This document shows positions 4,008-56,990 of a stretch of DNA of 64,000 nucleotides, piece after piece. The stretch covers positions 64,001 to 128,000 of IMG/VR virus record IMGVR_UViG_3300045988_167732; one strand, 5' to 3'. Positions within the stretch are counted from its first letter, which is position 1, and the number at the start of each line of letters is the position of its first letter. The translations under genes and the position numbers were made by a program. Source of the stretch: a virus. The notes below the pieces were generated by a model that saw nothing but the letters and a program-made list of their open reading frames with translations, had not been told where the DNA came from and searched no databases.

Positions 4008-4356
4008 TGGTGTTGAAATTTTAACTTCAGAACTGGTTAAAATATCTCCTGAATTTGATGGTTTAATTTTTGTGGGATTCCTTTTTTTAGTTTTTGGTTT
4101 AATATCGCTTTGGGCTTTTGGAGAAAGCTTAAAACAAAAACTAGGTTGGATACTAACTCTTATCTGTGCTTTAGGTTCTATTGGGCTTAGTTTTGTTGCT
4201 GGCAAAATGTTTAAAGATGCTTTCTTTCCAACTTATGAAGAAAGATACATGGTACAATTAAAAAAAGAAGTTCCTTTAGATTTTATAAAGAATTATGAAA
4301 TTCTTGAAGATAAAGGAAATGACATTTATATCGTTAGAGAGAAAGGAAAAGATTAA
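4000..4356 (+). CDS. small membrane protein, tandem family member 4
   Basis: Same ATGATTGA junction; N-terminus MIDGVEILTSELV; C-terminus YEILEDKGNDIYIVREK. Confidence 0.75.
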   Translation: MIDGVEILTSELVKISPEFDGLIFVGFLFLVFGLISLWAFGESLKQKLGWILTLICALGSIGLSFVAGKMFKDAFFPTYEERYMVQLKKEVPLDFIKNYEILEDKGNDIYIVREKGKD

Positions 4357-4357
4357 A

Positions 4358-4477
4358 ATGAAATTTACTGAGGAACAGATTGAGTTCATCGGGCATTGTA
4401 TTGATAATACCAGCATTGAACTTTATCCGAGTGAATGGGAAGAGCTTAAAAAAGAATTGAGAAAGGGAAACGAATAA
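4358..4477 (+). CDS. hypothetical small protein (39 aa)
   Basis: ATG 4358 directly after the TAA of the previous gene; in frame with ORF 4295-4477. Confidence 0.5.
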   Translation: MKFTEEQIEFIGHCIDNTSIELYPSEWEELKKELRKGNE

Positions 4478-4479
4478 AA

Positions 4480-4650
4480 ATGAAGATTTATTGTGCATAT
4501 GACCACCTGAATTGTGAGTCTGCTCCAAAGTCTCAGGAAGAGGTTCATGCTTGTGAATATTATGGTTCTTACCTTTGTAATGCTTGTCCCTCTCGTTATG
4601 ATGGTGATAAGGTAAAGAAGTATATGGAGGACAATCCTCGTGAACACTAA
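4480..4650 (+). CDS. Cys-rich small protein (56 aa)
   Basis: Hand-translated MKIYCAYDHLNCES...CNACPSRYDG; below the ORF-track size cutoff; fills the gap exactly. Confidence 0.5.
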   Translation: MKIYCAYDHLNCESAPKSQEEVHACEYYGSYLCNACPSRYDGDKVKKYMEDNPREH

Positions 4651-4897
4651 TGGAGTTAAACTGTATAATGAACGTGTAACGAAAGAATTCCTTAAGTATC
4701 GTAAGGTTCATCGTATTTATTGCAGTAATTGTGATGTTGAAATGAAGCTGGGAGAAATGGCTTATGCTACTTATCCGCCCCTTTATGAGTATGTATGTCC
4801 TAAGTGTAATCACAAAATGACTTCTTCTGTTTTTTATCCTGCAATTGAAGAAGTTTGGGAAAATGAAGATGATATGAGAAGAGAGGTAATGGACTAA
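4640..4897 (+). CDS. zinc-ribbon protein (85 aa)
   Basis: GTG start 8 nt after GGAGG; CSNC...CPKC pairs. Confidence 0.6.
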   Translation: MNTNGVKLYNERVTKEFLKYRKVHRIYCSNCDVEMKLGEMAYATYPPLYEYVCPKCNHKMTSSVFYPAIEEVWENEDDMRREVMD

Positions 4898-5856
4898 TGA
4901 GCAATATTAAGACTTATCAGAATGGCAACTATGTCGTGACCATCGACTTGGATAGCGGAACCAAGACTCGTGAAAATGATTTGGATTTTTTCAAGGCTGA
5001 TTTTCCAGAGTGTTGTGATTATAAAATTACTAACAATTGCGCACAGGGTTGTAGTTTTTGTCATGAGAACAGCACTCCAAATGGCAAACATGGTGATATT
5101 CTTGGGAAACAGGGTATTAAGGTTCTTGAAAGCTTCCATGAATACACAGAGCTTGCAATCGGAGGTGGAGACCCCCTTTCCCATCCTGATTTAATTCCCT
5201 TCCTTCGCAAGTGTAAGGAATTGAATCTTATTCCTAACATGACTGTTCATCAGTTCGCCTTTATGAAGAATCAGGAGCTTATTGAACAGCTTGTTAATGA
5301 AAAGCTCATCTATGGTATTGGTGTCTCTCTTGTTGACCCTCTTCAGCCGCAGTTTCTTAAGACTATTTCTAAGTATCCTAATCTTGTTCTCCATGTCATT
5401 AATGGTATTGTGACGATGGATACTCTTCGTGCTCTTAAGAATCGTGGTCTTAAAATTCTTATTCTTGGCTACAAGACAGTTCGTCGTGGTGAAGAGTATG
5501 TTAAGGAAGATTGGGCTAAAGAACTTGTAGCAAATAAGCAGAAGGCAATCTATGATAATCTTGGTCGTATGATTGATGAGAAGTGGTTCTCTGTTATTAG
5601 TTTTGACAATCTTGCTATTAAACAGCTTGAACCTAAGCGTCTTATGTCTGAGGAAGATTGGAATACTATGTATATGGGCGAAGATTATGGTAATATGTCC
5701 AGTGCTTCTATGTATATTGATGGAGTTGAAATGCAGTACGCAAGAAATTCTTGTGATGTAATTCATCGTTATGATGTTGGCAATAAGACGGTTACTGAAA
5801 TGTATCAGTTCTTGAGAGATTTGAATGGAGAAAACAATAATGAAACAAATTCGTAA
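4897..5856 (+). CDS. radical SAM enzyme
   Basis: CAQGCSFC (CxxxCxxC) cluster motif followed by a GGGDPL SAM-binding-like motif. Confidence 0.8.
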   Translation: MSNIKTYQNGNYVVTIDLDSGTKTRENDLDFFKADFPECCDYKITNNCAQGCSFCHENSTPNGKHGDILGKQGIKVLESFHEYTELAIGGGDPLSHPDLIPFLRKCKELNLIPNMTVHQFAFMKNQELIEQLVNEKLIYGIGVSLVDPLQPQFLKTISKYPNLVLHVINGIVTMDTLRALKNRGLKILILGYKTVRRGEEYVKEDWAKELVANKQKAIYDNLGRMIDEKWFSVISFDNLAIKQLEPKRLMSEEDWNTMYMGEDYGNMSSASMYIDGVEMQYARNSCDVIHRYDVGNKTVTEMYQFLRDLNGENNNETNS

Positions 5857-6832: not shown

Positions 6833-7303
6833 ATGGTTGATATTAAGTGGCTTTAGACTCAAGAAGGATAGAAAGCTTATTAGACTTGGATAAGAAAATT
6901 AGCAAATCGAGCAGAAGATAGAACAGATATTCCAATTTTAGTAGACACTAACGGAGAAATTTAGGTTTGGGTAACAATAAATAAAAAATACCTATCTAAA
7001 GAACAATTTGAAAAACTCGCTGATAAATCTGATGGTGAAGTTACTACAAAATTAGAATTTAAAACAAAAGATATTATTATAAGAGAGCTTATTTCTATTG
7101 CAAAAAGCAGAGATGCTTTAGCGGATAATGACGATGAAAGAGAACTTTTATGTCCCCTTGTTTCATTGTTTTAGGGAATAGAAGATGCTATTACTAATGA
7201 TATTTGCTATAAAGCTCAAAATGCTAAACAGCTTTTTATAAACAACTTTGAAAAAAATTTAGGAAAAGATGAAAATAATTCTAATAACCTCTTGACAAAT
7301 TAA
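6833..7303 (+). CDS. hypothetical protein (156 aa) with five in-frame TAG codons
   Basis: Hand translation: no TAA/TGA for 157 codons, five TAGs (first at 6854), ends at TAA 7301-7303; absent from the ORF track. Confidence 0.7.
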
Positions 7304-9514: not shown

Positions 9515-9926
9515 TGAATGGCGTAAAGAGTTTGGTCGTGTTCAAGTTTTACTTTATGCTTTTCCTAATGTTTTAAAGAAAATTGGCAATGAAGATTTAA
9601 TCAAAGAGCTTAAGATTTTAGGGTATGATGAGCATACTCTTGACTTTCTTAATTCAGCTATGGATGCTTGGGAGAAAGTTGAAAAAGAAGAGCTTATGAA
9701 AGATATGAATGTTCAACCTGACCCAGATACTATTCCAGTTCCTAAGAAAGCACCTGTTGCACCTGAAGAGCCTAAAAATCCTTCTATTTCTAATTATCAT
9801 TTTCAACCTGCTTGGTGTAGTAATTGTATTCATAGTTGGGGAATAGACTGTTTTAGAGACCCTCTAAATGATATACCTTGCCCTAATTATAGAAGAGACC
9901 CGCCCGACGGAGGTTTTTACGGATAA
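9495..9926 (+). CDS. hypothetical protein (143 aa)
   Basis: ORF track; SD GAGGT. Confidence 0.65.
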   Translation: MTVKEYNEWRKEFGRVQVLLYAFPNVLKKIGNEDLIKELKILGYDEHTLDFLNSAMDAWEKVEKEELMKDMNVQPDPDTIPVPKKAPVAPEEPKNPSISNYHFQPAWCSNCIHSWGIDCFRDPLNDIPCPNYRRDPPDGGFYG

Positions 9927-10867
9927 TGAGAGTTTTATCTTTGTTTGATGGTATTTGTTGCGGTCATCTTGCACTTGAAAGAGCTGGAATTAAGATTGAT
10001 TCTTATGATGCTTATGAAATTGAAAAGAACGCCATTAAAGCTACAGAAACAAATTTCCCTGATGTAGTTCATCATGGAGATGTAACTAAAGAAGATTTTA
10101 CAAAATATAAAGGGAAACTTGATTTAATTATCGGAGGTTCGCCCTGCCAAGGCTTTTCTTCTTCGGGTAAACAACTTAATTTCAATGACCCTCGAAGCAA
10201 ACTCTTCTTTGAATATGTGAGAGCAATTAAGGAATGTCAACCTAAATACTTTCTCCTTGAAAATGTTGTAATGAAAAAGGAATGGCAAGATATTATTTCT
10301 TCTTATCTTGGAGTAGAACCTATTGAGATTAATTCTTCTCTTGTTTCAGCACAAAATAGACGTAGACTTTATTGGACTAATATCCCTAATGTAACACTTC
10401 CCGAAGATAAAAACATTACTCTGGAAGATATTCTTGAAGATATTGAATTTCCTAATCCTGCGGCGATTAGAGGACGTAGATTAAACAAAGCTACTATTGT
10501 TGGTCGCAGATTAGATGAAAATGGCCATAGAAAAGATACTGATAAAACAATTCCTATTACACAATGTCTTGAAGTCCGCGCTACAAATACAGACAAATCA
10601 AATTGTCTCACTACTGTAGACAAGGATAATGTTCTTACACCACTTCCTATTGGTAGACATCCAGATGCTTTTAAAAATAATTTGCCTTTTAGATATTACA
10701 CTACAAAAGAAATGTGTCGTTTACAGACTGTTCCTGATGATTTTCTTAACATGATTCCAGATAGTGCAGCAAGAAAAGCTTTAGGTAACGGATGGACTGT
10801 AGATGTAATTGCTCATATTTTTAGTTTTCTTCCAGATGAATATAAAGAGGACAAAATAAATGATTAA
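9926..10867 (+). CDS. DNA (cytosine-5)-methyltransferase
   Basis: Motifs LSLFDGI (I), GGSPCQGFS (IV), LLENV (VI), QNRRR (VIII), GNGWTV (X). Confidence 0.9.
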   Translation: MRVLSLFDGICCGHLALERAGIKIDSYDAYEIEKNAIKATETNFPDVVHHGDVTKEDFTKYKGKLDLIIGGSPCQGFSSSGKQLNFNDPRSKLFFEYVRAIKECQPKYFLLENVVMKKEWQDIISSYLGVEPIEINSSLVSAQNRRRLYWTNIPNVTLPEDKNITLEDILEDIEFPNPAAIRGRRLNKATIVGRRLDENGHRKDTDKTIPITQCLEVRATNTDKSNCLTTVDKDNVLTPLPIGRHPDAFKNNLPFRYYTTKEMCRLQTVPDDFLNMIPDSAARKALGNGWTVDVIAHIFSFLPDEYKEDKIND

Positions 10868-11045
10868 GATTGGTGAAAAAGAATTTGTTAATGGAGATAT
10901 CTATTACAATCCTTTTTTTGGGGATTTGTGGATAATTCAAAATAACACCGAGATACGCAAAATCAATGACACTTATACTACTGATGTTAACGATGTTGTT
11001 GGTTTTATATATGTCGGACATGTTGATTTGGAGGTAATACAATGA
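10860..11045 (+). CDS. hypothetical small protein (61 aa)
   Basis: ORF track; overlaps its neighbours in operon style. Confidence 0.5.
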   Translation: MIKIGEKEFVNGDIYYNPFFGDLWIIQNNTEIRKINDTYTTDVNDVVGFIYVGHVDLEVIQ

Positions 11046-11407
11046 GTTATGATATTAGTTATAGAGTTCAATGTAAAGATGACCCTAAACTTTGGGCTGA
11101 TGTTGGAAACTGTGAAGCAAATATTACTTACAATTTGCGTGAAATGATTTAGAAATCTACAGGCTTAGAATGGAAAAATGAAGAAGATAATGGTCTTGTA
11201 AAAGATGTTATTCCTTTTATCATTCATGGTTTAGAAGAGCTTGAAAGATTTCCAAATAAATATAAACAATATGAATCTCCTAATGGATGGGGAACAATTA
11301 GTGGATGCAAGAGTTTTTTTACTCGATGTATTTTAGATTGGACTAATTTTACAGAAGATAGTTGGACTTCTCCTTATAAAGACATTGTTCATTTTTGGAT
11401 TGTATGA
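11042..11407 (+). CDS. hypothetical protein (121 aa) with one in-frame TAG
   Basis: ATGA overlap start; TAG at 11150-11152; otherwise open to TGA 11405-11407; absent from the ORF track. Confidence 0.65.
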
Positions 11408-18320: not shown

Positions 18321-18536
18321 ATGTATATTCCAAAAGATGACAGATAGGTATCTTTACTTTCTTTTACTGGCTGTGATGAAAAGAAATGTCCATGGAAGGA
18401 TTGTGTAAGGCATCCCGAAAGTGGATTTACCTATAATTCTATAGGGCATTTATCTTATCTTTGTAAAAAATTTAAAGAAGTCCCGAAAGAAGTTGAAGAA
18501 ACGAAGGAGAAAGAAACAAAGACAAATGATTCTTAA
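18321..18536 (+). CDS. hypothetical protein (71 aa) with one in-frame TAG
   Basis: ATG after AGGAGAG; TAG at 18345-18347; ends at TAA 18534-18536; absent from the ORF track. Confidence 0.5.
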
Positions 18537-19799: not shown

Positions 19800-20204
19800 A
19801 TGAATTATAAAACTGGAAATAATGTAGTAGAAAATAAAATTGTTACTTATTATCCTGTTCTTGTGGTTAAGTTTAATGAATACAAATGTGCTTATTATAT
19901 TAAACGTGACCTTTTGTATTCTGTTCCTAATTATTTTTTCACTCAAGACATAGAAGAAGATAACATTCTTTGCGCAAATTCTGAGGGAGAGGCTTTAGCA
20001 TTGGTTGGAGAATTTAAATCTGACCCAAACAGCGAAAGTTTAATTAACACTTTCGTTAAAGCAGTTAAATCTTATAATAATCCCATCCATCTCCCAGAGG
20101 CTCCTCAATATATTGAACATTACTTTTCTGTTATTTGCAAAAAGCACGTTTTTACTACTTCTCTAATGGACAATAAATATCACACTTCCCCTGAAAACTT
20201 TTAA
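19800..20204 (+). CDS. hypothetical protein (134 aa)
   Basis: ORF track; SD GAGGTG. Confidence 0.7.
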   Translation: MNYKTGNNVVENKIVTYYPVLVVKFNEYKCAYYIKRDLLYSVPNYFFTQDIEEDNILCANSEGEALALVGEFKSDPNSESLINTFVKAVKSYNNPIHLPEAPQYIEHYFSVICKKHVFTTSLMDNKYHTSPENF

Positions 20205-20215
20205 GGAGGTTTTAT

Positions 20216-20725
20216 ATGGATAACTATGAAGCTATGAAGCCTTGGGAGCACGGAAAGATTGTTGAAATTCATCATGATATTAAGTCTATTTCTGTGTATC
20301 CTGTCGTTTATGAAAACAAAGATTTTTATGTCTGTCGAGTATCAGGTTCTACAGAAATAATTACAATTAGAAAAAATTCTTGTCAAAATTACGTCTTTGA
20401 ATCTTACGAAAAGTATATGAGTTGGAGACGAAACAACCCTCTTGCTAGTCTTAATAGCAGACATTTCTTTGTATATATCCCCAAGGATGGGAAAATTTCT
20501 TTCGCTGACAATTTTCCTGTTAGAGATTCTCTTGATGAAGCATTGGCTAAAGCTGAACACGCTTATGATGAAGAGGAGAAATCTTTTAAGCGTTTGCAAA
20601 CCAGCTTTGAATATTATGCCAATAGAATTGAAGACACAAAAGAAACTTTAAGACAGAAAATGTCACGTATTGAAAATATTAAGGCTCAAATTGCGGAAAG
20701 GGACAAGAATAAAAATGGTATTTAA
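20216..20725 (+). CDS. hypothetical protein (169 aa)
   Basis: ORF track; SD AAGGAGG. Confidence 0.7.
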   Translation: MDNYEAMKPWEHGKIVEIHHDIKSISVYPVVYENKDFYVCRVSGSTEIITIRKNSCQNYVFESYEKYMSWRRNNPLASLNSRHFFVYIPKDGKISFADNFPVRDSLDEALAKAEHAYDEEEKSFKRLQTSFEYYANRIEDTKETLRQKMSRIENIKAQIAERDKNKNGI

Positions 20726-21047
20726 TCTTACAGATAACGGTCTTACTCATTCTAATATGGAGACTTATTATTGTATTGGTATTCCCCGAAAGAAACTTCC
20801 TCTTAACTATGGTGAATCACCTTCTTATGGTTTTGCTAATAGAGGTTGGTCTAATATACCGTATCTCATTGCAGAGAATTTCACTCTTTCCTGTTTTTCT
20901 TTTGACAATGAAAAGTGTGCTAAAGAATGGTGGAGTAAGAATAAGAAGTTTTTCCTTGAAAACAAAACTTATACCAAGGAATATGACTTTAATTATGCAA
21001 AGATTATCAAGGTAGAAATTGGTAGTAAGTATACTATTATGCGTTAA
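20715..21047 (+). CDS. hypothetical protein (110 aa)
   Basis: In-frame ATG 20715 within ORF 20670-21047. Confidence 0.6.
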   Translation: MVFNLTDNGLTHSNMETYYCIGIPRKKLPLNYGESPSYGFANRGWSNIPYLIAENFTLSCFSFDNEKCAKEWWSKNKKFFLENKTYTKEYDFNYAKIIKVEIGSKYTIMR

Positions 21048-21058
21048 AGGAGAATACT

Positions 21059-21451
21059 ATGGTTAACCTTAAAAATCAGCCTGTGTATTATATTACCATT
21101 AAAGCAAACCGAGACTCTGAAATTAAGACTCTTTATGCTGGTGAACACTTTGGTGAAGGTGGTTTTTTCATCAATTTCGATTCAGCAAAGCGTTTTAGTT
21201 GTCCTCTTTCTGCTGAAAAGTGGTTTAAGTTTAATTTCGATGAAACTAATCTTCCTCCTGAATATTATGACTGGACAAGCATTACCATTGAAGAGCTTAA
21301 GCTTGTTCCTGTTATGAATATCTATCTTTCTAAGGAAGAGACGATTTCAAATTCTAAAACTCTTGAAACCACCACAAGGCAAGAAAAGCCTAAGCGTACT
21401 TACAAAAAGAAAAAGGTAGAAGACAAAATCGACACCATTCCAGATACTTAA
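21059..21451 (+). CDS. hypothetical protein (130 aa)
   Basis: ORF track; SD AAAGGAG. Confidence 0.7.
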   Translation: MVNLKNQPVYYITIKANRDSEIKTLYAGEHFGEGGFFINFDSAKRFSCPLSAEKWFKFNFDETNLPPEYYDWTSITIEELKLVPVMNIYLSKEETISNSKTLETTTRQEKPKRTYKKKKVEDKIDTIPDT

Positions 21452-21477
21452 TTCATAAAAATTTAACAGTTTATCTA

Positions 21478-21506
21478 TTGACAGATATTCTTTTTTATGC
21501 TAAACT
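21478..21506 (+). promoter_or_regulatory. sigma70-type promoter
   Basis: TTGACA, 17-nt spacer, TGCTAAACT; embedded in a 15-bp hairpin (21480-21494 with 21515-21529). Confidence 0.6.
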
Positions 21507-21582
21507 AGTTATAGAAAAGGATATCTGTCCTTTATTTTAATTTAAATAAATCTGTTGAAATACACAGAAGAATGGAGATAAT

Positions 21583-22614
21583 ATGGCAACTGTTTAGTAT
21601 CATTATGGTAAAAATAATTCTTTGCTTCGTTGGTATCATCCTATTGTAAGAGGCGTGACTTATAATAATGTGGTGGTAATTGATTGGCCTAAGAGTGAAC
21701 TAAAGAGCGCAAGTATAGATATGTGTACGCAACCAAAGCTTAGTCCTGAAAAAATGTATAACCTTTATGGTTATAAACCTGATGTTGTAACAAACGCTTT
21801 CTTCTTTGATACTGCAAGCGGAACTTCTATCTGGAATTTGAAAAGTAATAATACTGTTTATGCCAAAGATGGTAATTTCTCTAATGGCTGGGGTATTACA
21901 AATTCTGGAAAGATTATGAATGGCGTATTTAACAATGGTGTTGGTTGGAGAGACTTTGGCACAGAATATCCTGCTTTATTTAAAAATAAACAGCCTCAAT
22001 CTGTAAAAAACTATGCTGACATTGATTATGAAGCCAAAAGACAGATGTTCGGTTGGACAAAGACAGATGGTAATCCTAAAAACGAAAAGTATTTTATTGT
22101 TTCTGTTGTATCTGGTGGTATGAAACTTTCCACTGCTCAGAATCTTATTAAATCTCTTTTTCCTGATGTAGATTATTGTTGCAATCAAGATGGCGGAAAT
22201 TCTACTTATACAAACTTTGAAGGAAAGCGTCTTTCTGCGTCTGGTTGGTTAAGACCTGTTGATTCTATTCTTGCTTTCTGGCTTCGTTCTAATGCTGAAA
22301 GAGAAAAAGCAGAAACAGAAGAAAAGAAACAAGACAAGGCTAACAAAAAAGAAGAAAACCGTCCTAAGAAAACTGGCTACCGTTGTCAGTTAGGAGCTTT
22401 TAGCAATTCTACTCGTGCAATTACTTACAGAAATGAAATTAGAACTCTTACTGGTGTAATTGATTATTCAACGGCTTTCTGTGTTCAAGACCCCAAAACA
22501 AAGCTCTATAAGGTCCAAGTAGGTTTTTTTGCTAAAAAGTCTGGTGCTGAAAAGGTTAAGGCAGATTTGGCTGAAAAGGGATATAATTGTTATATTTGCT
22601 ATGTGGAGGAATAA
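21583..22614 (+). CDS. cell-wall hydrolase: phosphodiester-glycosidase-like N-domain plus C-terminal SPOR domain; TAG at codon 5
   Basis: ATG 21583 after GGAG; TAG 21595-21597 in frame with ORF 21622-22614; NAFFFD and NQDGGNST motifs; C-terminus YRCQLGAFSN...YKVQVGFFAKK is SPOR-like. Confidence 0.65.
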
Positions 22615-22979
22615 TGAAAATTTTTGATACTTGTCTTAAAATTGAAGAAATTTTAAAAGGTTATCTTATAGCTTCTAATAAAACAAGCGACAAAAAGAAA
22701 TCTGAATATTATAAGCATGAAGCTTACAGATTAAATTTTGCTACGAGAGAACTTGATTTATTTTATAACTGGGGCTTTTCTAATCTTGTTTATGTACCCA
22801 ATCTAAATCATTGGGCTTGTGTAATGCCTAAAGACTATGAATATCTTAATTCTACTTCTTATCCCTATTCCAAAGAAGACCCTCCTATTATCTTTGTAAG
22901 TGGTAATGTTGATAGTGTATTAGATGAATATTTAAGCGAATTAGATGAATATTTAAATGAGGAAAAAGGTAATGAATGA
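22614..22979 (+). CDS. hypothetical protein (121 aa)
   Basis: ATG 22614 in a TAATG overlap; in frame with ORF 22587-22979. Confidence 0.6.
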   Translation: MKIFDTCLKIEEILKGYLIASNKTSDKKKSEYYKHEAYRLNFATRELDLFYNWGFSNLVYVPNLNHWACVMPKDYEYLNSTSYPYSKEDPPIIFVSGNVDSVLDEYLSELDEYLNEEKGNE

Positions 22980-23277
22980 GAAGAAGTATGAAGTGATTTC
23001 TGATATTACCTCTCCTATTGATTAGGAAATTGCAGATTTTGTTCAGCGTATTATTGACCAAGACGAAACTCTGGCTTCTTTGACTGATACTTTTTTTATC
23101 AGTTATGATTATGAGTATGAAAATGTTTATATTTGCACTACCTATCCACAGTATTTAATTGTAATTAATCACCAACTTTTTAAAGATTTGTGTGATATAA
23201 TTAATGAGTATTATGGATTTTCTGTCTTTGTTAGAAAAGTTGATTCAATTATTAGCATTAAATCCAAGGAAAGCTAA
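22972..23277 (+). CDS. hypothetical protein (101 aa) with one in-frame TAG
   Basis: ATG 22972 overlaps the previous stop; TAG 23023-23025; in frame with ORF 23080-23277. Confidence 0.55.
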
Positions 23278-23297
23278 CAATTTAATTTAATAAATAG

Positions 23298-23326
23298 TTG
23301 ACAACACCTCTCCTTTATGGTATATT
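23298..23326 (+). promoter_or_regulatory. sigma70-type promoter
   Basis: TTGACA, 17-nt spacer, TGGTATATT. Confidence 0.7.
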
Positions 23327-23353
23327 AAATGTACTAAAAAGAGAGGTGTTTTT

Positions 23354-23914
23354 ATGCTTGGAATTTTATGTGCTATTGGTGGATTTTTCGTTGTTGTATT
23401 TATTATATTTGTTTGTTGTTTTGCGTATATCATTTATAAAGATGGAGATGATGGATATAAAAACACAATAATTGATTGGATTAAAGAATATCGCAAAGAT
23501 TGGCGTAATTGGGCGCGTTTAAAGTTTAACGAATGGAAAAAATATTATATTTTAGCTCCTGATGAATGGAGACTGGCATGGTTTGCTCCTATGCGATTTA
23601 TTACAGATAAACACGGAACTAGGGATACAGTTCATATTAATTTTGGCTTTATTGGAAATATTAGATATATCCTTTTTAAGCATAACATGGATAACAAGTA
23701 TGAAAAGAATAAATCTGCTCAACGCTCTCAAGATAATTTAAGATATGTTCTCGAAGCTGTTCAAGGAGATATTGATAAAATCCAAAAGAAAACCGAAGAG
23801 GAAATCAATAAAGCCAAAGAAGAGACAGATAAGATTCGAAAGTCTTATTTAAACGAAGAATCTTATTTAAATAAAGAAATTGAATTAAAATCTACTGATA
23901 AATGGGAGAATTGA
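23354..23914 (+). CDS. membrane-anchored protein, tandem paralog A
   Basis: ORF track; INFGFIGNIRY and LEAVQGDIDKIQKK motifs shared with the 23916 gene. Confidence 0.7.
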   Translation: MLGILCAIGGFFVVVFIIFVCCFAYIIYKDGDDGYKNTIIDWIKEYRKDWRNWARLKFNEWKKYYILAPDEWRLAWFAPMRFITDKHGTRDTVHINFGFIGNIRYILFKHNMDNKYEKNKSAQRSQDNLRYVLEAVQGDIDKIQKKTEEEINKAKEETDKIRKSYLNEESYLNKEIELKSTDKWEN

Positions 23915-23915
23915 T

Positions 23916-24545
23916 ATGCTGACATTAAAAATTTTTATGATTTTTCTTCTTGTTGCTTTGGCAGGATTTTGTTTTTGGCTTTCTTGGTCTCTTTTTCTTG
24001 GTCCACTTATTTTAAAAGGAATCTTTGATGCTGATTTAGATAATATCAATGAAAAGCGCAAAGGCGAAGAATGTACCAAGATGGATTTTGATAAGTGGTA
24101 CGACATTTTTTGTTTAAACAATGAGAAATGGAATTTGGGTTGTCTTCCGTATTGTCGTGTTGATACAACAAGACAAAGATTTGGAGAAATTATTCTTACT
24201 TCAAATTATTGGAATTATAATTATGGTGTTAAAAATATTTATGTGGATTTTGGTTTTATTGGCAATCTAAAATATTCTCGTTGGCGTCATAAATATCTTA
24301 AAAATAAAAAGACCAAAGAAATTCAAGAAAGAGAAGTAAAAAATCTTAAATTTATTCTTGAAAGCGCTCAGGAAGATATTGAAATTCTCAAAAAGCAATC
24401 CAAAGAAGAAATTAACAAAGCAGCAGAAACCACTAAAAAAGTCAAAGAGAATCTTGACAAACAAAAGTTACGAAAGATGAAAACAGGGTATGATAATGAC
24501 CCTCCAATGTACTCCATCTTTAGATATGATGACGTAGAGTTTTAA
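23916..24545 (+). CDS. membrane-anchored protein, tandem paralog B
   Basis: VDFGFIGNLKY and LESAQEDIEILKK motifs. Confidence 0.7.
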   Translation: MLTLKIFMIFLLVALAGFCFWLSWSLFLGPLILKGIFDADLDNINEKRKGEECTKMDFDKWYDIFCLNNEKWNLGCLPYCRVDTTRQRFGEIILTSNYWNYNYGVKNIYVDFGFIGNLKYSRWRHKYLKNKKTKEIQEREVKNLKFILESAQEDIEILKKQSKEEINKAAETTKKVKENLDKQKLRKMKTGYDNDPPMYSIFRYDDVEF

Positions 24546-24813: not shown

Positions 24814-25119
24814 ATGATTATTTGTTATGATAATCAAATTATTAATTTAGATATGGGATGGAGAGCTATTCACATTACTGCCTGTAGAGATTTTGGCTGG
24901 GAAATTTCTCCCCCTGTTTATTCTCTTACTATTGAGCTTAATGATAAATCTTCTTGTAGTTTAGGAGTTTTTAGCGAAGATGAGTATTGTTTGGCAAAAA
25001 TAATGATGGACAAAATTAAAGAAGGGTTAGCGAACAATATTTCTTTCCTTGACCTTGATGATTACTTGAAAATGTGGAAGAAGAAATTAGAAAAAGAAAA
25101 GGAAACTAAGAATGGATAA
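24814..25119 (+). CDS. hypothetical small protein (MIICYDN family)
   Basis: ORF track; the N-terminus is paralogous to the previous gene. Confidence 0.6.
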   Translation: MIICYDNQIINLDMGWRAIHITACRDFGWEISPPVYSLTIELNDKSSCSLGVFSEDEYCLAKIMMDKIKEGLANNISFLDLDDYLKMWKKKLEKEKETKNG

Positions 25120-34801: not shown

Positions 34802-36940
34802 ATGAAAAAGAATGATTTCCCCACTAACCCCGTAGCTTTTGCTCAATATGTTTGGGAAAATATTGAAGTTGGAGACACATTGGTTGATAGACTTCGCAAT
34901 GTTTGGCAAGTAACTTCCTTTGTAAGTGACGGCAATCGTAAAGTAAGAATTAACATTAGTTGTACTGACAACGAAGATTTTACGGGTTGTTATAACGGGG
35001 ATAAAAAGAAATTAACTCGTTTTGACCTTGCTTCCAAGCAATATATTTATATTGACAACACAGTTGTTCCTATTCCTGCTGTTGAAGATTGGAATATTAA
35101 AACCTTTGTTCAGAACTATAATACTCTTTGGAGTATCCTTGATGTATTAAAGATTCCAACAAAAGAAGAATGCGCAGATATTTTTTCTATTTTTTATTTA
35201 ACTCAAGAAACTGAAAGAGATTTAGAGGAAAAGAATAAGAAGCTATCTACTTGCAGAACACTTAAAGATTTAAAATCCAAATTCTCAGAATACGATTTAG
35301 ATGGAGACAAGCTTCGAGAAAAATGTGTTAATTGTCTCCCAAAAGAGGACACAAAAATGACAGAAAACGAAAAAAATTACTTCCTTAAAAATAAGGGAAA
35401 AACGGGTGTCGATACCCAATTAAAATCCGCATTTTATTCGCAGGAAGATTTGGATGCCGCTATTGAAAAAATTGGTGACTTCCTTGAAACCCATACAAAT
35501 ACTGCTAAAAACAAATGTAAAGAATCCGTTAAGAAATTTACAGGCTTTTCTGATGAGGATTTGGATGAAATTTGTACACGAGTGGTGGACACTTTTTATT
35601 CGGCTTCCGATTTTTCTAAGAAAACTTTCGACGAATTTAAGAGCTGGATGAAAGAAAAGTATAATAACTGTACAAAAGAGGTTAAAGAAGAATCTAAAGA
35701 GGAACCTAAAACTAAGACTGAAACTGTTAAAGTAAACAATAATCAGTCTGTTATTACCGTTGATAATAATGATACGGATACTGGAACGCATAAGGTTGGT
35801 AGTACTGATACAGAACAGCCAAAGCCTGTCTTTAAGCTCGGTGATGTTGTCTATACTAAGGGAGAATCTGTTGGCTATATTTCTCGTATTGGGTATACTG
35901 ATAGATATTGTTATTATTATTGGACACCAATTATCGTTTCTTCTAATGATAAGACACTTAAACATTTTATGGTGGATGAAGAAAGGGGCTTAACTTATCC
36001 CTATGAAACCCATTATAAGCGTATTGGCAATTACCTTATGTCTGACCTTAATTGCGTTAAGGAAATGGCTCGTATTGATTCTGTTTATAAGTTAAGTGAA
36101 GATAATCTTAAGCAGTTTCCTTATCTTGATAAGTATATAAATAACTTTAAAGATAATGAAGACGAAGAAAACGAAGGAGATACAGAAGATACAACCGACT
36201 TTATTAACAGACCTTTCCATATCGGAGATATTGTAATTGATAAAAATGGAAACGTAGGTTATATTTCTGAAATTTGTTCCAGAGATAATACTTGGTTTTA
36301 TTATTATGTTCCTGTTGTTATTGAACCTAACCATATTGCTTTTAAGATTCAAAAACCTCTCGATGTTACCCTTGAAAATTATATTCAAATTGGAGCATGG
36401 GATTTAACTTATAGTGGAGCAAGAAAAAATCTTTCTCGTTTTAAAGAATTTAAGAATTTATCTTTAACTTATAACAAGGAACTCCCCGAAGAACTTCTTA
36501 AAGAATTTCTTGATAGAAACAAAGAATCCCTTAGTAAAAAGAAGACCGATGAAAAAGATAATAATACATCTACAACAGATAATGCAACACCTCCATCCAG
36601 CAGAAAAGTTGTTAGTGCTGATTCACTTCCTAATTATCTTAGTAAGCTTCATCTTACTGATTCTGCTTATAGCTATGAAGTAAATACTAAACTTACTACT
36701 GACATTGTTCGTAAGCTGAATGAAGTTATCGAAACTCTTGATGATATTATTTGGTATCACCTTCAAGAAAAAGAAAGATAGAACGAATTGAAAGGCACAC
36801 TACCATCATCTGAAAAGGTTAGTAATTATTCCTCTGTTTATAATACAGTTCGAAAAAATGCCGATATTTCATGGCCATCATGGAAAAAGGAAGTTTTTAA
36901 TAATAGTTGCGCTATTTCAACACACGCAAAAAAATTGTAA
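34802..36940 (+). CDS. large hypothetical protein (712 aa) with an internal domain duplication and one in-frame TAG
   Basis: ORF 34802-36781 ends at TAG; the frame stays open 53 more codons to TAA 36938-36940, which is immediately followed by a strong terminator. Confidence 0.7.
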
Positions 36941-36967
36941 TGAAGTAATTGAATCATAATTTATTTT

Positions 36968-37010
36968 AAACTTGTTTATCTCATATCGGATAAACAAGTT
37001 TATTTTTTAT
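36968..37010 (+). terminator. rho-independent terminator
   Basis: 13-bp stem AAACTTGTTTATC/GATAAACAAGTTT followed by a T-run. Confidence 0.8.
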
Positions 37011-37119
37011 TTTAAATTGTACTTGGCACCTTGACTTTTATGTGTTATACTATATATGGGTTAATAGAATTTGCCGTATTGTGCAATTATTAATACTACT
37101 TATGTAAAGGAGATAATTT

Positions 37120-38547
37120 ATGGCTGAATAGAAATAGAGCCTTTATCTTAGAGTTTAGGAAAAATTATCTAATGTTTCTACTGTTAATAGTTATAAAGAA
37201 CTTTGTAAATTACTGGACGAACCTGATTATTCTCGTCCTTCAAAAGCTGCTCAACTTAAAAGACAAGAAAAAGAATGGAAGAAATGTTTTACATGGAGAA
37301 GAAAAAAAGAAAAATATACTTCAATAAAAATAGTTTCTCCTGATGAATATTATTTGGCTATTTTAAAACAGCTTTATCAAAATAGCTCTATTTGGGCTTT
37401 CTTTTCTTTTTTGAATGTTTATAGTCAATATACTAATAACGCAAGACTTTGTGTTTCTAAAGGAGATATTGCTTTAGCCGTTGGTTTACAAAATGAAAAC
37501 TATAAAGATTTTCATGTTTCTTCTTATAGTTACGGTAGAAGATTAGAAGAATATACTTTAGGTTTAAAAGATTCTAAATATCCTTTTGTTACTACTCCTA
37601 AAAAAGAAATTAGAGAACAAAGAAAAAAAGATGATGAATCTGCTTATGGTTTAACTAAACGTACACAAAATTTACTCGATGATTATGATTCTCATACTTC
37701 TAAGCAAAATTATTATCAAGTTGAATCTATGTTAAACAAACTTGAAGAAGAAGGCGCTATTCTCCTTCATAAAACCTTTGTGGGAGGATTTATTGATAAA
37801 AAAGCACTTCCTTTTGATGCTGATTATTCAACTATATATGAAGAAAATGGTAATTTTTATTTGCCTGTTAAAAATGGAGAACCTTTATTAGTTACTTATT
37901 ATGAAAGAGCTTTAACAGATGAAGAATTGGCTAACTTCCTTAACTTACGTGGCTCTATAATGGTTGATTTAAAATGTCATGGATTATCAGAAGTTTTCAT
38001 TTCTGGTCAACAAGATGATTTTAATAAGAAACTTTCTAAATCTTAGTTAATAGAATTTGGTGCTTTATTTATTTACCCTTCTTATTTAATAAATTATTCT
38101 TCCGACCTTGTAGCATTAAATCAATCTTATTATAAAACTCTTATGGCTAATTTTTATAATGAACAGCTACTTAAGAAAAATTTAACAGCTAATAATAAAG
38201 AAACACAACAAAAAATACTTAAACTAAAAACTGAAAGATAGTCTAAAGAAAAAGGCAAGTGCCGAAATACTTTTACTAAGCATGATGGAACTGTTGTGTT
38301 TTCTGATAAAAAAGAAGAAGAAGCAGTACAGCTTTCGCAATATTATGAAGCTTTCTTATACGAAAAGCTAAATAAAGACCTTATTCAACTTAATTTAGAT
38401 AAACTTATACCTCAAAATCTTGAATCTCTTTCTTCTAATTCTACAGAAAAAAGCTCTACTTGGGAAAGCTTGTTTAATAAATCTTGGACTAAAATTAAAA
38501 ATACCGAAAATTATTAGAAAAATTAGATTGTGGTTCCAGATACATAA
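37120..38547 (+). CDS. hypothetical protein (475 aa) with seven in-frame TAG codons
   Basis: ATG after AAAGGAG; ORFs 37354-38046 and 38296-38517 share this frame; no TAA/TGA for 476 codons; TAG at 37129, 37135, 37156, 38044, 38239, 38515 and 38524. Confidence 0.75.
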
Positions 38548-42687: not shown

Positions 42688-43315
42688 ATGGATAAGATTA
42701 CTTATTTAAGAAAGACTAAAGAGAAAATTAACAAAGAGTATTTAAAAAAATTGCATGGAATAGATGAAATTTTTAAGAGCGATAATGTTCAGATTGCAAT
42801 TTGCGAGCAACGCTCGCGCGTTGATTTATGTCGGGAAGAATATTATTTGTAATAATTTTTATCATGCTATTAAAAATGACGGGACTGTTTCTTTTAAAAT
42901 TAATGAATTGAAGAGTTTATTGAGAGGTAAACTTATTCATCCTTCTGATTGGTTTATTAGTAGATGTCCTAAGTGTGGTTGCTATTTATATTATCCTTGC
43001 GTAAGTACAAGTAAAGGTTATCCTGAATTTGGTAAAAAGGGTTTTGTGGGTATATGTGCTAACTGCTTTGAAGAAAGATTGATTGAGAATACTAAGGCTA
43101 TTAATTTTCCTATCGAACGTGAACATCGCTTACGCGATGAACATGGATATCAACTTGTGAATTATAAATATTATATTAAAGCTGGGACTATGAATAGAAA
43201 TGAACTTGAACAGTTTGTGAAAGAACTTGGGAATAGAAAGTATTGCAATGGCACTTTAATGAGTATTGATAAAGATTTGAATATGTTAGAATTGGGAGCA
43301 ATGCTCCCGCATTGA
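42688..43315 (+). CDS. Cys-rich zinc-ribbon protein, paralog B, apparently split by a +1 frame change near 42847
   Basis: Strong SD AGGAGG serves ATG 42688 (a 54-aa frame ending at TAA 42850); ORF 42764-43315 in the +1 frame has no SD; similarity to paralog A spans both frames. Confidence 0.5.
42803..42824 (+). repeat. G+C-rich hairpin element, copy a
   Basis: GCGAGC-AAC-GCTCGC-GCGTTGA. Confidence 0.6.
43294..43315 (+). repeat. G+C-rich hairpin element, copy b
   Basis: GGGAGC-AAT-GCTCCC-GCATTGA; a compensatory C/G to G/C change relative to copy a. Confidence 0.6.
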
Positions 43316-43919: not shown

Positions 43920-43948
43920 TTGACAACACCTCCTTCTTATGTTATAAT
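43920..43948 (+). promoter_or_regulatory. sigma70-type promoter
   Basis: TTGACA, 17-nt spacer, TGTTATAAT. Confidence 0.7.
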
Positions 43949-44081: not shown

Positions 44082-45083
44082 ATGAAAAACAAGAAATATA
44101 CAATTAAATATAGCAAGCCTAACCATAGCAACACAAACACAAACACAAACACAAACACCCCAACACATGAAGCACAACTCACAAACACACATCCTCTAAT
44201 TAAGACAAGTATTCGTAAAGCGATTGCAACTTGTCTCACATTCAGTTTAGTGGTAAGTGTAGTAGGGTATGCTCAAGCCTTAAATAAAACAGGCGAAGAT
44301 AATGCTTCCAAAGATAATGCTTCAACTTTGAGTGAAACTGAAATCTCCTCTCCTCATTATATTGCCATTAAAAACTTCCAAACACAAAAAGAAAATTATT
44401 GGGACATAAGCAATATCGAAAACATTGGTCCTGATAGAATTTTTTATGTGGACATGAGTAAAATGGTTGAGAACAATGCTGAAAATAATGATGAACCTGT
44501 TTATATTTTTTCAGACATGAGCGTACAGTATTCTAAAGGTCAAACTTCTGGAAGCAAAACTTCTGAACCTGAACATACAGAACCTAAGACCTCAACTTAT
44601 CGCTACGCATATTTAATTCATCTGACTGATTCTGAACGTCATGTAGCAGAAAGCATTGTAGCTGGTGAGAGTGGAAATCAACCCTTTGTAGGAAAGAAAC
44701 TCGTAGCACAGGCTATTTATAATGGTATGCTGAGAGACAATATGTCCCCCTCACAAGTAAGAAAACAATACTCCTATGATGGATATAAGGACATTGATGA
44801 ATTTGAAAAAGAATGTCTTAAAGCCTATGGCAACACAAATGCTGCTGATGAATGTAGACAAGCAGTAAAAGAGATATTCGATAATTATAGTATGCCTACA
44901 GATGATTTTGTATTATTCTTCTATGCTCCTGCGCATAGTAAAGGCACATGGCATGAGAATGCTAAGACTTTAAAGCCTATTACTTATGTAAAAGAAGATG
45001 GAAGCACTACTAATTATATTGGCGGTCATAAATTCTTTGCTTTGAAGAATGAACCTGTAATCAATTATACCAGAGAAGGTTAA
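44082..45083 (+). CDS. membrane-anchored SleB/Hydrolase_2-like cell-wall hydrolase (tentative)
   Basis: N-terminal transmembrane segment; C-terminal AESIVAGESGNQPFVGKKLVAQAIYNGM resembles the SleB-family core; (NT)5 repeat near the N-terminus. Confidence 0.5.
   Translation: MKNKKYTIKYSKPNHSNTNTNTNTNTPTHEAQLTNTHPLIKTSIRKAIATCLTFSLVVSVVGYAQALNKTGEDNASKDNASTLSETEISSPHYIAIKNFQTQKENYWDISNIENIGPDRIFYVDMSKMVENNAENNDEPVYIFSDMSVQYSKGQTSGSKTSEPEHTEPKTSTYRYAYLIHLTDSERHVAESIVAGESGNQPFVGKKLVAQAIYNGMLRDNMSPSQVRKQYSYDGYKDIDEFEKECLKAYGNTNAADECRQAVKEIFDNYSMPTDDFVLFFYAPAHSKGTWHENAKTLKPITYVKEDGSTTNYIGGHKFFALKNEPVINYTREG
44131..44154 (+). repeat. hexanucleotide microsatellite (ACACAA)x4
   Basis: Read directly; encodes the NTNTNTNT run. 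Confidence 0.9.
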
Positions 45084-56925: not shown

Positions 56926-56990
56926 AATCAATTTTCCTTTCTTAATTAGACAAAATGTTTGTAGTGACTATATATTAAAGGTAGGAGGGA

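What the first reader, a model, noticed from the sequence alone, without database searches (positions are those of the whole stretch)
21583..22614. Putative lysin is gated by a TAG at codon 5
The only SD-linked start (GGAG, ATG 21583) is followed by ATG GCA ACT GTT TAG. This reading is in frame with the 330-aa ORF, which encodes a phosphodiester-glycosidase-like domain (NAFFFD, NQDGGNST) fused to a SPOR peptidoglycan-binding domain. Under the standard code, translation would abort after 4 codons. A lysis enzyme made only when TAG is suppressed fits the published idea that recoding times lytic gene expression.
Basis: partly seen in the sequence, partly recalled or inferred. Interest (0 to 1): 0.65.

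Follow-up and report, generated by a model that had tools for sequence, protein, structure and literature searches.

The report
Amber-gated cell-wall enzyme, recoded jumbo phage
The stop codon at position 5 of this phage cell-wall enzyme gene is real and conserved, because the phage reads TAG as an amino acid through its own suppressor tRNA, so the enzyme can be made only once that tRNA is present; this is a clean new example of a published idea, not a new kind of system.

Summary
GGAG (21574-77), ATG 21583, then GCA ACT GTT TAG (21595-97) lie in frame with a 338-codon open frame ending at TAA 22612-14.

- **Conservation.** The TAG is in 16 independent related assemblies. One relative has CAG (Gln) there. 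Another lineage has a TAG at codon 14 instead.
- **Translation.** Codons just after the TAG are under strong purifying selection. The proposed internal start, TTG 21622, is CTA/TTA/CTT/CTG in relatives, so it is not a conserved start.
- **Recoding.** Five other window genes carry in-frame TAGs behind good starts. Among close relatives these TAGs swap mainly with CAA/CAG. Relatives are 108-216 kb phage contigs with a tRNA(CUA) about 6 kb upstream of where the window begins. This is a TAG-to-Gln (code 15) jumbo phage.
- **Domains.** Lytic function and timing remain inferred.
- **Extra finding.** TAGs cluster in the first 20 codons: 9 of 16. The first-20 versus rest comparison against CAA/CAG gives Fisher P=6e-5. 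In two gene families they sit at different early codons in different lineages, which hints at selected N-terminal "gates".

Verdict: new member of a known kind.

The parts
21478..21506 (+). Sigma-70-type promoter-like site TTGACA-17 nt-TAAACT with TG before the -10, upstream of the gene
   Evidence: TTGACA and the -10 region are conserved in relatives (alignment). Consensus match only; function is not shown.
21481..21530 (+). Long inverted repeat (GACAGATAT...ATATCTGTC) that encloses the promoter and is followed by a T-rich tract. It is either a terminator-like hairpin of the upstream unit or a DNA palindrome.
   Evidence: RNAalifold on 9 relatives gives 18 pairs, three of which keep pairing through changes on both sides in at least one relative. 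Its role is unknown.
21551..21568 (+). Small hairpin TCTGT-N8-ACAGA just 5' of the Shine-Dalgarno sequence
   Evidence: One pair changes G-C to A-U (TCTAT...ATAGA) in L008 and L017. Its role is unknown.
21574..21577 (+). Shine-Dalgarno GGAG, 5 nt before the start codon
   Evidence: GGAG is invariant in all relatives.
21583..21585 (+). True start codon ATG
   Evidence: Homologues start here and conserve MA..YHYGKNNSLLRW.
21595..21597 (+). In-frame TAG, codon 5, read as a sense codon (most likely Gln)
   Evidence: Conserved in L001, L007 and L008-L021. It is CAG in L006, AAT in L002, and K or V in more distant homologues.
21583..22614 (+). Full coding sequence: 343 codons including the TAG, stop TAA
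   Evidence: The gene caller used code 15 for the 99%-identical P0001 ('translates_to_query: no'). pN/pS over codons 6-46 is 0.02-0.39.
21598..22290 (+). NAGPA / DUF2233-like (phosphodiester glycosidase fold) catalytic domain, including the N-terminal strands right after the TAG
   Evidence: Residues 1-40 of the model have pLDDT 94-96. The end coordinate is approximate.
22369..22596 (+). SPOR peptidoglycan-binding domain
   Evidence: Pfam PF05036, E=5e-13, residues 258-333 of the 338-aa frame. Also CwlC 1x60 and FtsN 1uta by profile and the CwlC and RlpA SPOR domains by fold.
6833..7303 (+). Second TAG-bearing gene (156 codons; TAG at codons 8, 13, 17, 44, 114)
   Evidence: Codon 114 is TAG in the window and L045 but Gln in the other relatives. 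No clear SD.
11042..11407 (+). Third TAG-bearing gene (121 codons; TAG at codon 37), phrog_4019
   Evidence: The TAG alternates with Gln in L045 and L018.
18321..18536 (+). Fourth TAG-bearing gene (71 codons; TAG at codon 9)
   Evidence: Codon 9 is GAA in L018 and a Pro codon in L007. L002-L005 carry a TAG at codon 13 instead.
22972..23277 (+). Fifth TAG-bearing gene (101 codons; TAG at codon 18), two genes downstream of the NAGPA-SPOR gene
   Evidence: A second TAG in L018 and L007 aligns with Gln.
37120..38547 (+). Sixth TAG-bearing gene (475 codons; TAG at codons 4, 6, 13, 309, 374, 466, 469), with its own promoter-like site and an upstream terminator
   Evidence: Homologues carry 4-9 TAGs at partly different positions, mostly alternating with Gln.

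Best explanation
The gene 21583-22614 is an intact gene of an uncultured jumbo phage (relatives are 108-216 kb contigs) that decodes TAG as an amino acid, almost certainly glutamine (genetic code 15).

Translation starts at the SD-linked ATG 21583. Codon 5 (TAG) is read by a phage-encoded tRNA with anticodon CUA. In relatives this tRNA sits in a tRNA array about 6 kb upstream of where the window begins. Where that tRNA is absent or scarce, ribosomes are released after Met-Ala-Thr-Val and no enzyme is made. Once the tRNA accumulates, the full 343-residue protein is produced.

The protein has an N-terminal NAGPA/DUF2233-type phosphodiester-glycosidase fold and a C-terminal SPOR domain, which binds peptidoglycan. 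It has no signal peptide. It therefore most likely acts on the host wall at or after membrane permeabilisation, that is, in lysis.

Shown:
- the start, the frame and the conservation of the TAG;
- translation of the codons flanking it;
- TAG used as a sense codon in six window genes;
- tRNA(CUA) in relatives;
- the two domain folds.

Inferred:
- that the window's own genome carries the tRNA;
- that the amino acid is Gln;
- that the enzyme is lytic;
- that the early TAG has been selected as a translational gate that delays or limits expression from a host-type promoter.
For: 1. Anatomy. GGAG-5nt-ATG GCA ACT GTT TAG is followed by a 338-codon open frame.

2. Conservation. TAG at codon 5 occurs in L001, L007 and L008-L021. 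L006 has CAG and no TAG. L002-L005 have AAT at codon 5 but TAG at codon 14.

3. The region right after the TAG is translated.
- Codons 6-13 show 1-6 synonymous and 0-1 non-synonymous differences in pairs not involving L002.
- Pairs involving L002 show 2-3.5 non-synonymous differences.
- pN/pS over codons 6-46 is 0.02-0.39.
- Homologues without a TAG conserve this N-terminus.
- The AlphaFold model places it in well-ordered strands, pLDDT 94-96.

4. No conserved internal start. TTG 21622 is CTA, TTA, CTT or CTG in relatives, and ATG 21721 is GTA in L007.

5. Genome-wide recoding.
- Six window genes with good starts hold 16 in-frame TAGs.
- Their orthologues carry TAGs at partly different positions that alternate mainly with CAA/CAG.
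- Only 2 of the 64 plus-strand genes tallied end in TAG.
- Independent gene callers chose code 15 for L001, L022, L023-L028 and L029.

6. Suppressor. A tRNA(CUA) sits next to tRNA-Arg(TCT) in 10 of 13 related contigs. An intron-containing version occurs in L042 and L047, and probably in L053, where ARAGORN labelled the spliced product tRNA-His(atg) and the CUA reading comes from comparing exons with L052. Window position 1 maps to L042 9505, about 5.8 kb downstream of that tRNA.

7. Domains.

8. Gate-like placement.
- In the six TAG genes the first 20 codons hold 9 TAG against 2 CAA/CAG. The rest hold 7 against 38 (Fisher P=6e-5; binomial P=4e-6).
- In the 37120 gene, TAGs 4, 6 and 13 are shared with the 66%-identical L029 homologue. 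None of the other TAGs is shared.
- Two gene families have TAG at different early codons in different lineages: 5 versus 14, and 9 versus 13.
Against: - No tRNA gene lies in the window itself, so the suppressor is inferred from relatives.
- The amino acid inserted is not proven. TAG also aligns with K, E, L and W in more distant comparisons. TAG14 in L002 replaces a conserved Leu.
- L006 and the distant homologues P0005, P0008, P0017 and P0019 have no TAG in this gene. A gate is therefore not essential to the gene family.
- A single TAG among 11 Gln-type codons could be drift in a code-15 genome.
- No holin was identified, and a second candidate wall hydrolase without a TAG lies at 44082-45083. 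Which enzyme lyses the cell is open.
- The N-terminal bias rests on six genes and on my own start assignments.
- The suppressor's expression timing is unknown.
Confidence: 0.8

Rival explanations
1. TAG here is an ordinary, selectively neutral synonym of CAA/CAG in a code-15 phage. The gene does depend on the suppressor, as every TAG-containing gene does, but the position at codon 5 has no regulatory meaning.
For: CAG replaces the TAG in L006. Distant homologues have no TAG. Interior TAGs in other genes flip freely with CAA/CAG among close relatives.
Against: TAGs are strongly concentrated in the first 20 codons relative to CAA/CAG. N-terminal TAGs of the 37120 gene are retained at 66% identity while interior ones are not. 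TAG5 is kept between lineages whose synonymous divergence in the same stretch is 0.6-0.76. TAGs reappear at other early codons in the L002 lineage in two different genes.
Confidence: 0.35
2. Standard code applies. ATG 21583 encodes a 4-residue leader peptide (MATV), and the enzyme is made by re-initiation or independent initiation at TTG 21622 or another downstream start.
For: TTG 21622 is the first start-type codon after the TAG, 8 codons downstream.
Against: The codon is CTA, TTA, CTT or CTG in relatives and has no SD. Codons between the TAG and TTG are conserved at the protein level with synonymous changes. Homologues read straight through with Q, K, V or N at that position. In L002 the TAG sits at the TTG position itself. 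ATG 21721 is not conserved, and a start there would delete three predicted strands of the fold.
Confidence: 0.03
3. The gene is a pseudogene with a nonsense mutation, or the TAG is an assembly error.
For: Under code 11 the gene is formally interrupted.
Against: The same TAG occurs in 16 independent assemblies from different projects. The downstream frame is intact and under purifying selection. The P0001 cluster has 756 member sequences.
Confidence: 0.01
4. The protein is suppressor-dependent but is not the lysis enzyme. It is a wall-remodelling enzyme. Examples would be an enzyme that cleaves GlcNAc-1-phosphate linkages of wall polymers to strip receptors, or an accessory to another endolysin.
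For: The NAGPA fold is a phosphodiester glycosidase, not a classical muramidase, amidase or peptidase. PHROGs has no family for the catalytic part; only the SPOR part of P0008 hits an endolysin family. A SleB-type hydrolase candidate lies at 44082-45083. The gene sits among small genes with host-type promoters, not in an obvious late module.
Against: A SPOR domain with no signal peptide fits a cytoplasmic enzyme released to the wall at lysis. Membrane proteins lie 0.7-3 kb downstream: 23354-24545 and the Bax1-I protein at 25112-25801. A late-only requirement fits a TAG gate.
Confidence: 0.3

Closest known systems
Stop-codon-recoded (code 15, TAG to Gln) phages with recoded lysis genes (Borges et al., bioRxiv 10.1101/2021.08.26.457843; proteomic validation in PMC9523058; jumbo phages in PMC13037316)
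   Same: In-frame TAG sits in conserved genes and alternates with Gln codons. A phage tRNA(CUA) is present. TAG is almost unused as a terminator, and the genome has low GC. A wall-acting enzyme is among the recoded genes. Most neighbouring genes stay in standard code.
   Different: Recoding in this 64-kb stretch is very sparse: 16 TAGs in 6 of about 100 genes. A coding-density screen would not flag it. The enzyme carries a single TAG at codon 5 instead of many. TAGs cluster at the N-termini, a feature not mentioned in the preprint. The enzyme is a NAGPA-SPOR protein, not a lysozyme or amidase.
Laboratory amber mutants of phage lysis genes, such as lambda Sam7 (own knowledge)
   Same: One amber codon in a lysis gene makes lysis conditional on an amber-suppressor tRNA.
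   Different: Here the arrangement is natural and conserved, and the suppressor is supplied by the phage itself.
NAGPA 'uncovering enzyme' / DUF2233 (PF09992; PDB 6pku, 6pki, 3ohg)
   Same: Same fold (Foldseek E about 1e-10, TM about 0.6 on the target). The family shares an invariant D-G-G-x-S signature (window NQDGGNST), though I did not check whether it matches NAGPA's catalytic site.
   Different: About 15% identity. It is phage-encoded, fused to SPOR, and its substrate is unknown.
SPOR-domain wall enzymes such as B. subtilis CwlC (PDB 1x60)
   Same: A C-terminal SPOR domain follows a catalytic domain.
   Different: The catalytic domain is not an amidase.

Membership tests
Code-15 (TAG to Gln) recoded phage | In-frame TAG inside conserved protein-coding genes | tested here: met
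   Six window genes hold 16 TAGs. Their orthologues are conserved across the TAGs.
Code-15 (TAG to Gln) recoded phage | TAG positions align with Gln in homologues | tested here: met
   Among relatives at least 93% identical, TAG alternates mainly with CAA/CAG, once also with an Arg codon. L006 has CAG at lysin codon 5. At greater distances K, E, L and W also appear.
Code-15 (TAG to Gln) recoded phage | Suppressor tRNA with anticodon CUA in the phage genome | tested here: inconclusive
   Present in the related contigs. Ten of 13 have an uninterrupted gene. L042 and L047 have an intron-containing one, and L053 probably does. The corresponding region lies about 6 kb outside the window.
Code-15 (TAG to Gln) recoded phage | TAG avoided as a terminator | tested here: met
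   Stop codons of the 64 plus-strand genes tallied are TAA 46, TGA 16 and TAG 2. One of the two TAG-ending genes is a transposase.
Code-15 (TAG to Gln) recoded phage | Gln actually inserted at TAG (proteomics) | not testable with these tools
   Needs peptide evidence such as MATVQYHYGK.
NAGPA / DUF2233 (PF09992) | Sequence match to the family profile | tested here: inconclusive
   The window protein alone is below threshold. Twenty-two of 24 family members match, best E=9e-17. The family profile hits PDB NAGPA at E=6e-8.
NAGPA / DUF2233 (PF09992) | Fold of the catalytic domain | tested here: met
   The model has pLDDT 88.7. Foldseek gives 6pku E=9e-11 and 3ohg E=1e-7.
NAGPA / DUF2233 (PF09992) | Phosphodiester glycosidase activity | not testable with these tools
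   Requires an enzyme assay.
SPOR domain (PF05036) | Sequence and fold match | tested here: met
   Pfam E=5e-13. CwlC and FtsN by profile. CwlC and RlpA by fold.
Phage endolysin | Degrades host peptidoglycan and is needed for lysis | not testable with these tools
   Only indirect evidence: a wall-binding domain, no signal peptide, and membrane proteins nearby.
Phage endolysin | Sits in a lysis cassette next to a holin | tested here: inconclusive
   Two paralogous N-terminal-TM proteins (23354-24545) and a Bax1-I membrane protein (25112-25801) lie downstream. None matches a holin family.

The most novel reading that the evidence does not exclude
In this phage clade the recoded stop is used as a positional device. 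Amber codons are placed, kept and re-evolved within the first ~20 codons of selected genes, including a wall-acting enzyme and a 475-aa protein with a probable DNA-binding N-terminus. Some of these genes are transcribed from host-type promoters. Without the phage tRNA(CUA), ribosomes abort after a few residues and no truncated product is made. With it, the gene switches on. This would be an N-terminal 'amber gate' layer of gene regulation, distinct from the diffuse recoding of late modules described so far.
Probability: 0.4. Interest if true: 0.65.

Novelty: new member of a known kind. Interest (0 to 1): 0.5.

Why it matters
This locus gives the 'recoding times lysis' hypothesis an unusually clean test object. 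It has one promoter-like site, one SD, one amber codon at position 5 and one wall-acting enzyme. A natural CAG variant (L006) and a natural codon-14 variant (L002) serve as controls.

It also shows that a phage can be code-15 while using TAG so sparsely that density-based screens and standard gene callers miss it. Those callers then truncate or lose genes; P0003 and P0004 are N-terminally truncated calls.

If the N-terminal clustering of TAGs generalises, recoded stops are deliberately positioned translational switches, not merely an alternative codon.

Tried and rejected
- **GenBank phages.** blastn of 20000-24000 and tblastn of the enzyme against GenBank phages found no match, so no cultured relative or host could be named. 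The DUF2828/TROVE-like protein at 7423-9141 hits large Bacillus phages at only 37% identity.
- **PHROGs.** Nothing was found for the window enzyme or for four of the five other TAG genes; 11042-11407 matched phrog_4019, of unknown function.
- **The 475-aa TAG-rich protein.** The structure from a 4-sequence alignment had pLDDT 63.9. Only the N-terminal roughly 120 residues were confident and looked like a winged helix. Foldseek gave nothing below E=0.1, so its function stays unknown.
- **Rfam on the L042 tRNA intron.** No hit. The L053 intron hit Intron_gpI only below the gathering score.
- **TGA or TAA recoding.** Considered and dropped. Reading through them joins only out-of-frame or opposite-strand fragments.
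- **Crude code-15 gene finder.** It also produced false or doubtful calls, which I did not count. Examples are 42755-43315, where the real ATG follows the TAG, and low-scoring ORFs inside the tRNA array of L042.
- **The +4 base after TAG.** Twelve of 15 are purines, but that is close to normal first-codon-position composition. No claim is made.
- **Literature.** A search for NAGPA/DUF2233 endolysins found nothing relevant.

Full report
**1. The observation**

The window reads aatGGAGataatATG GCA ACT GTT TAG TAT CAT TAT GGT AAA AAT AAT TCT TTG....
- GGAG lies at 21574-77, ATG at 21583 and TAG at 21595-97.
- The frame then stays open for 338 codons to TAA 22612-14.
- The mechanical ORF list gives 330 aa from TTG 21622.
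- No start-type codon lies between the TAG and TTG 21622, and that TTG has no SD.
- A promoter-like TTGACA-17-TAAACT site with an extended -10 sits at 21478-21506.

The description is accurate.

**2. The TAG is inside a translated, conserved gene**

A protein search returned 23 homologues.
- The closest is P0001: 99% identical, 343 aa, 756 member sequences. It begins MATVQYHYGKNNS.
- Its DNA (L001) has TAG at codon 5, and the gene caller had used code 15.
- P0002 (85% identical) has a genuine CAG there.
- L007 (85%) has TAG at codon 5.
- L002-L005 (83%) have AAT at codon 5 and TAG at codon 14. Under code 11 this produced the truncated call P0003.
- Fourteen IMG/VR phage contigs of 108-216 kb (93-99% identical) all have TAG at codon 5.
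- More distant homologues (P0005-P0017) start at the equivalent Met and conserve Y-N/H-x-x-K-H/N-N-S-L-L-K/R-W-Y, with K or V at the TAG position.

Several results show that the codons after the TAG are translated.
- Between lineages, codons 6-13 show 1-6 synonymous and 0-1 non-synonymous differences in pairs not involving L002.
- Pairs involving L002 show 2-3.5 non-synonymous differences.
- Codons 6-46 give pN/pS of 0.02-0.39.
- The window's TTG 21622 is CTA, TTA, CTT or CTG elsewhere.
- The first in-frame ATG (21721) is GTA in L007.

Internal initiation, a pseudogene and an assembly error are therefore excluded for practical purposes.

**3. The phage reads TAG as sense**

I scanned for SD-linked starts followed by an in-frame TAG and ran a crude code-15 gene finder. 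Together they revealed five more TAG-bearing genes in the window:

| Gene | TAG at codons |
|---|---|
| 6833-7303 | 8, 13, 17, 44, 114 |
| 11042-11407 | 37 |
| 18321-18536 | 9 |
| 22972-23277 | 18 |
| 37120-38547 | 4, 6, 13, 309, 374, 466, 469 |

These genes fill what are otherwise gaps or 'no-ATG' ORFs under code 11.

Homologues of the 475-aa protein (P0024-P0027, 40-99% identical) carry 4-9 TAGs at partly different positions. Eight of the 16 TAG columns have Gln in other sequences.

Among near-identical relatives, TAG flips mainly with CAA/CAG (in one case also with an Arg codon):
- codon 114 of the 6833 gene, plus an extra TAG in L046;
- codon 37 of the 11042 gene, where L021 and L053 have Arg;
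- two positions between the window and L022.

The second TAG of the 22972 gene in L018 and L007 also aligns with Gln.

Of the 64 plus-strand genes tallied, 46 end in TAA, 16 in TGA and 2 in TAG. One of those two is a transposase.

TGA or TAA read-through gives nothing coherent.

**4. The suppressor**

The window has no tRNA. I walked upstream in 13 related IMG/VR contigs and found a tRNA array.
- Ten contigs hold an uninterrupted tRNA(CUA) directly after tRNA-Arg(TCT).
- The other three hold an interrupted tRNA at the same spot.
- ARAGORN with introns allowed finds a tRNA(CUA) with a 219-nt intron in the anticodon loop in L042 and L047.
- In L053 it labels the spliced product tRNA-His(atg).
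- The exon sequences of L053 match the uninterrupted tRNA(CUA) of L052, so I read it as the same suppressor with an intron of about 200 nt.
- That L053 insert matches Rfam group I intron over the full model, at 34.9 bits, below the gathering score.
- Two unrelated tRNA(CUA) sequence types occupy the site.
- Window position 1 aligns to L042 9505, so the suppressor would lie about 5.8 kb before the window.

Introns in the tRNAs of alternatively coded jumbo phages are already described (PMC13037316).

**5. The protein**

- SPOR is clear, E=5e-13.
- The catalytic part is NAGPA/DUF2233-like.
  - The family profile against the PDB gives E=6e-8 to the uncovering enzyme.
  - Pfam NAGPA is found in 22 of 24 members.
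  - The AlphaFold model has pLDDT 88.7 and includes confident N-terminal strands.
  - Foldseek gives E=9e-11 to 6pku and also matches 3ohg.
- There is no signal peptide or TM segment (read directly from the sequence).
- Downstream lie two paralogous proteins with N-terminal TM segments and a Bax1-I family membrane protein.
- A second candidate wall hydrolase, with weak SleB-like and PHROG endolysin matches, is at 44082-45083 and has no TAG.

A role in lysis is therefore plausible but not shown. A phosphodiester glycosidase could equally act on GlcNAc-1-phosphate-linked wall polymers. That last point is inference from the family's chemistry.

**6. Mechanism**

The gene has a near-consensus host-type promoter-like site, as do many units in this block. 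Yet it cannot be translated past codon 4 under the host code. With the phage tRNA(CUA) present, the full enzyme is made. That dependency follows directly from the sequence. Whether it is used as a timer is inference, and it matches the published proposal for recoded lysis genes.

**7. An additional pattern**

- In the six TAG genes, 9 of 16 TAGs fall in the first 20 codons, against 2 of 40 CAA/CAG codons (Fisher P=6e-5; binomial P=4e-6).
- Before the sixth gene was added, the 65-gene set gave P=1.4e-4.
- In the 37120 gene, TAGs 4, 6 and 13 are shared with the 66%-identical L029 homologue. None of the nine other TAG positions in the two sequences is shared.
- In two gene families the L002 lineage has its TAG at a different early codon than the window lineage: enzyme 14 versus 5, and the 18321 gene 13 versus 9. 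Other relatives have sense codons at those positions.
- Several further single early TAGs appear in relatives, at codons 10, 11 and 25.

This suggests selection for an early TAG as such. The Borges preprint does not mention any positional bias.

Caveats: the sample is small, it depends on my start assignments, and a general preference for rare codons at 5' ends could contribute.

**8. Comparison and novelty**

Code-15 phages, their tRNA(CUA), intron-bearing tRNAs and the preferential recoding of lysis genes are all published. This locus is a new, very clean member of that kind, in an uncultured jumbo-phage clade with no GenBank relative.

The features that differ are:
- very sparse recoding;
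- a single-codon N-terminal gate;
- its re-evolution at other early codons;
- an enzyme type unusual for a phage lysin.

**9. Verdict**

- Confidence is about 0.8 that the gene is translated from ATG 21583 through a suppressed TAG.
- It is about 0.4-0.5 that the early TAG is a selected gate.
- It is about 0.55 that the enzyme functions in lysis.

Noticed in passing
L042 3367-3671; L047 3342-3646; L053 about 4313-4606: In three relatives the amber-suppressor tRNA at this locus is interrupted in the anticodon loop by a ~200-220 nt insert. ARAGORN calls tRNA(CUA) in L042 and L047. In L053 it calls tRNA-His(atg), but the exons match the L052 tRNA(CUA). The L053 insert matches Rfam group I intron over the full model, but below the gathering score.
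   Followed up: partly
L043-L054, about 4560-4730 in each locus: Two unrelated tRNA(CUA) sequence types (TGAGGAAT...CCA and GCGGCGTAG...) occupy the same position after tRNA-Arg(TCT) in different relatives. This suggests the suppressor gene has been replaced. Which amino acid each one carries is unknown.
   Followed up: no
L002 9902-9904 (equivalent to window 21622-24): In the L002-L005 lineage the enzyme's TAG replaces a nearly invariant Leu (NSLLRW), not a Gln or a variable residue. This could be a tolerated L-to-Q change or a suppressor with a different identity. It is unexplained.
   Followed up: no
window 21481-21530 and 21551-21568: An 18-pair inverted repeat encloses the enzyme's promoter-like site and is followed by a T-rich tract. 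A 5-bp hairpin abuts the SD. Both show compensatory changes among relatives.
   Followed up: partly
window 37120-38547: This 475-aa protein of unknown function is the most TAG-rich gene in the window, with three TAGs in the first 13 codons. It has its own promoter-like site (37023-37051) and follows a strong terminator (36967-37002). The N-terminal roughly 120 residues model as a winged-helix-like domain, so it may be a suppressor-dependent regulator.
   Followed up: partly
window 34802-36940: This 659-aa gene ends at TAG 36779-81. Under code 15 it would gain a 52-residue extension to TAA 36940. In L029 the homologue's TAG is only 3 codons before the stop. TAG may still act as a (leaky) terminator in some genes.
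   Followed up: no
window 30183-31502: This transposase gene (phrog_506, E=5e-71) is one of only two genes ending in TAG, with TAA four codons later. It looks like a standard-code mobile element inserted in a code-15 phage.
   Followed up: no
window 44082-45083: A second candidate cell-wall hydrolase (weak Hydrolase_2/SleB match; PHROG endolysin E=1.5e-5). It is preceded by a perfect TTGACA-17-TATAAT site at 43920-43948 and has no TAG.
   Followed up: partly
window 23354-24545 and 25112-25801: Two adjacent paralogous proteins with N-terminal transmembrane segments, and a Bax inhibitor-1 family membrane protein (E=2e-18), lie just downstream of the enzyme. They are possible holin-like or lysis-control partners.
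   Followed up: partly
window 55333-56931, 59958-60968, 61729-63996 (minus strand): Two PcfJ-like proteins and a DUF932 protein, domains typical of conjugative elements, sit in the minus-strand block of this phage. A radical SAM protein (4897-5856) and a C5 DNA methylase (9926-10867) are on the plus strand.
   Followed up: no
L035 15870-16205 versus window 59458-59126 (minus strand): A TAG in the L035 orthologue aligns with TGG (Trp) in the window gene. This is one of the non-Gln correspondences.
   Followed up: no
window plus strand, e.g. 12083, 14736, 17690, 19384, 23298, 25806, 28927, 43920, 45493: Many intergenic sites match TTGACA-17-TATAAT at 11-12 of 12 positions, often with TG. The plus-strand block looks like many short units read by host RNA polymerase.
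   Followed up: no
L044 3591-3747 and 4250-4382; L042 3023-3155; L053 4003-4135: Rfam tRNA matches span 133-157 nt, which suggests further intron-containing tRNAs in the array.
   Followed up: no
L055 (128-kb contig holding P0008): This more distant relative has the enzyme without a TAG. It shows large gaps between code-11 gene calls (coding fraction about 0.5) and a YonV_C domain protein. It may be recoded elsewhere in its genome.
   Followed up: no
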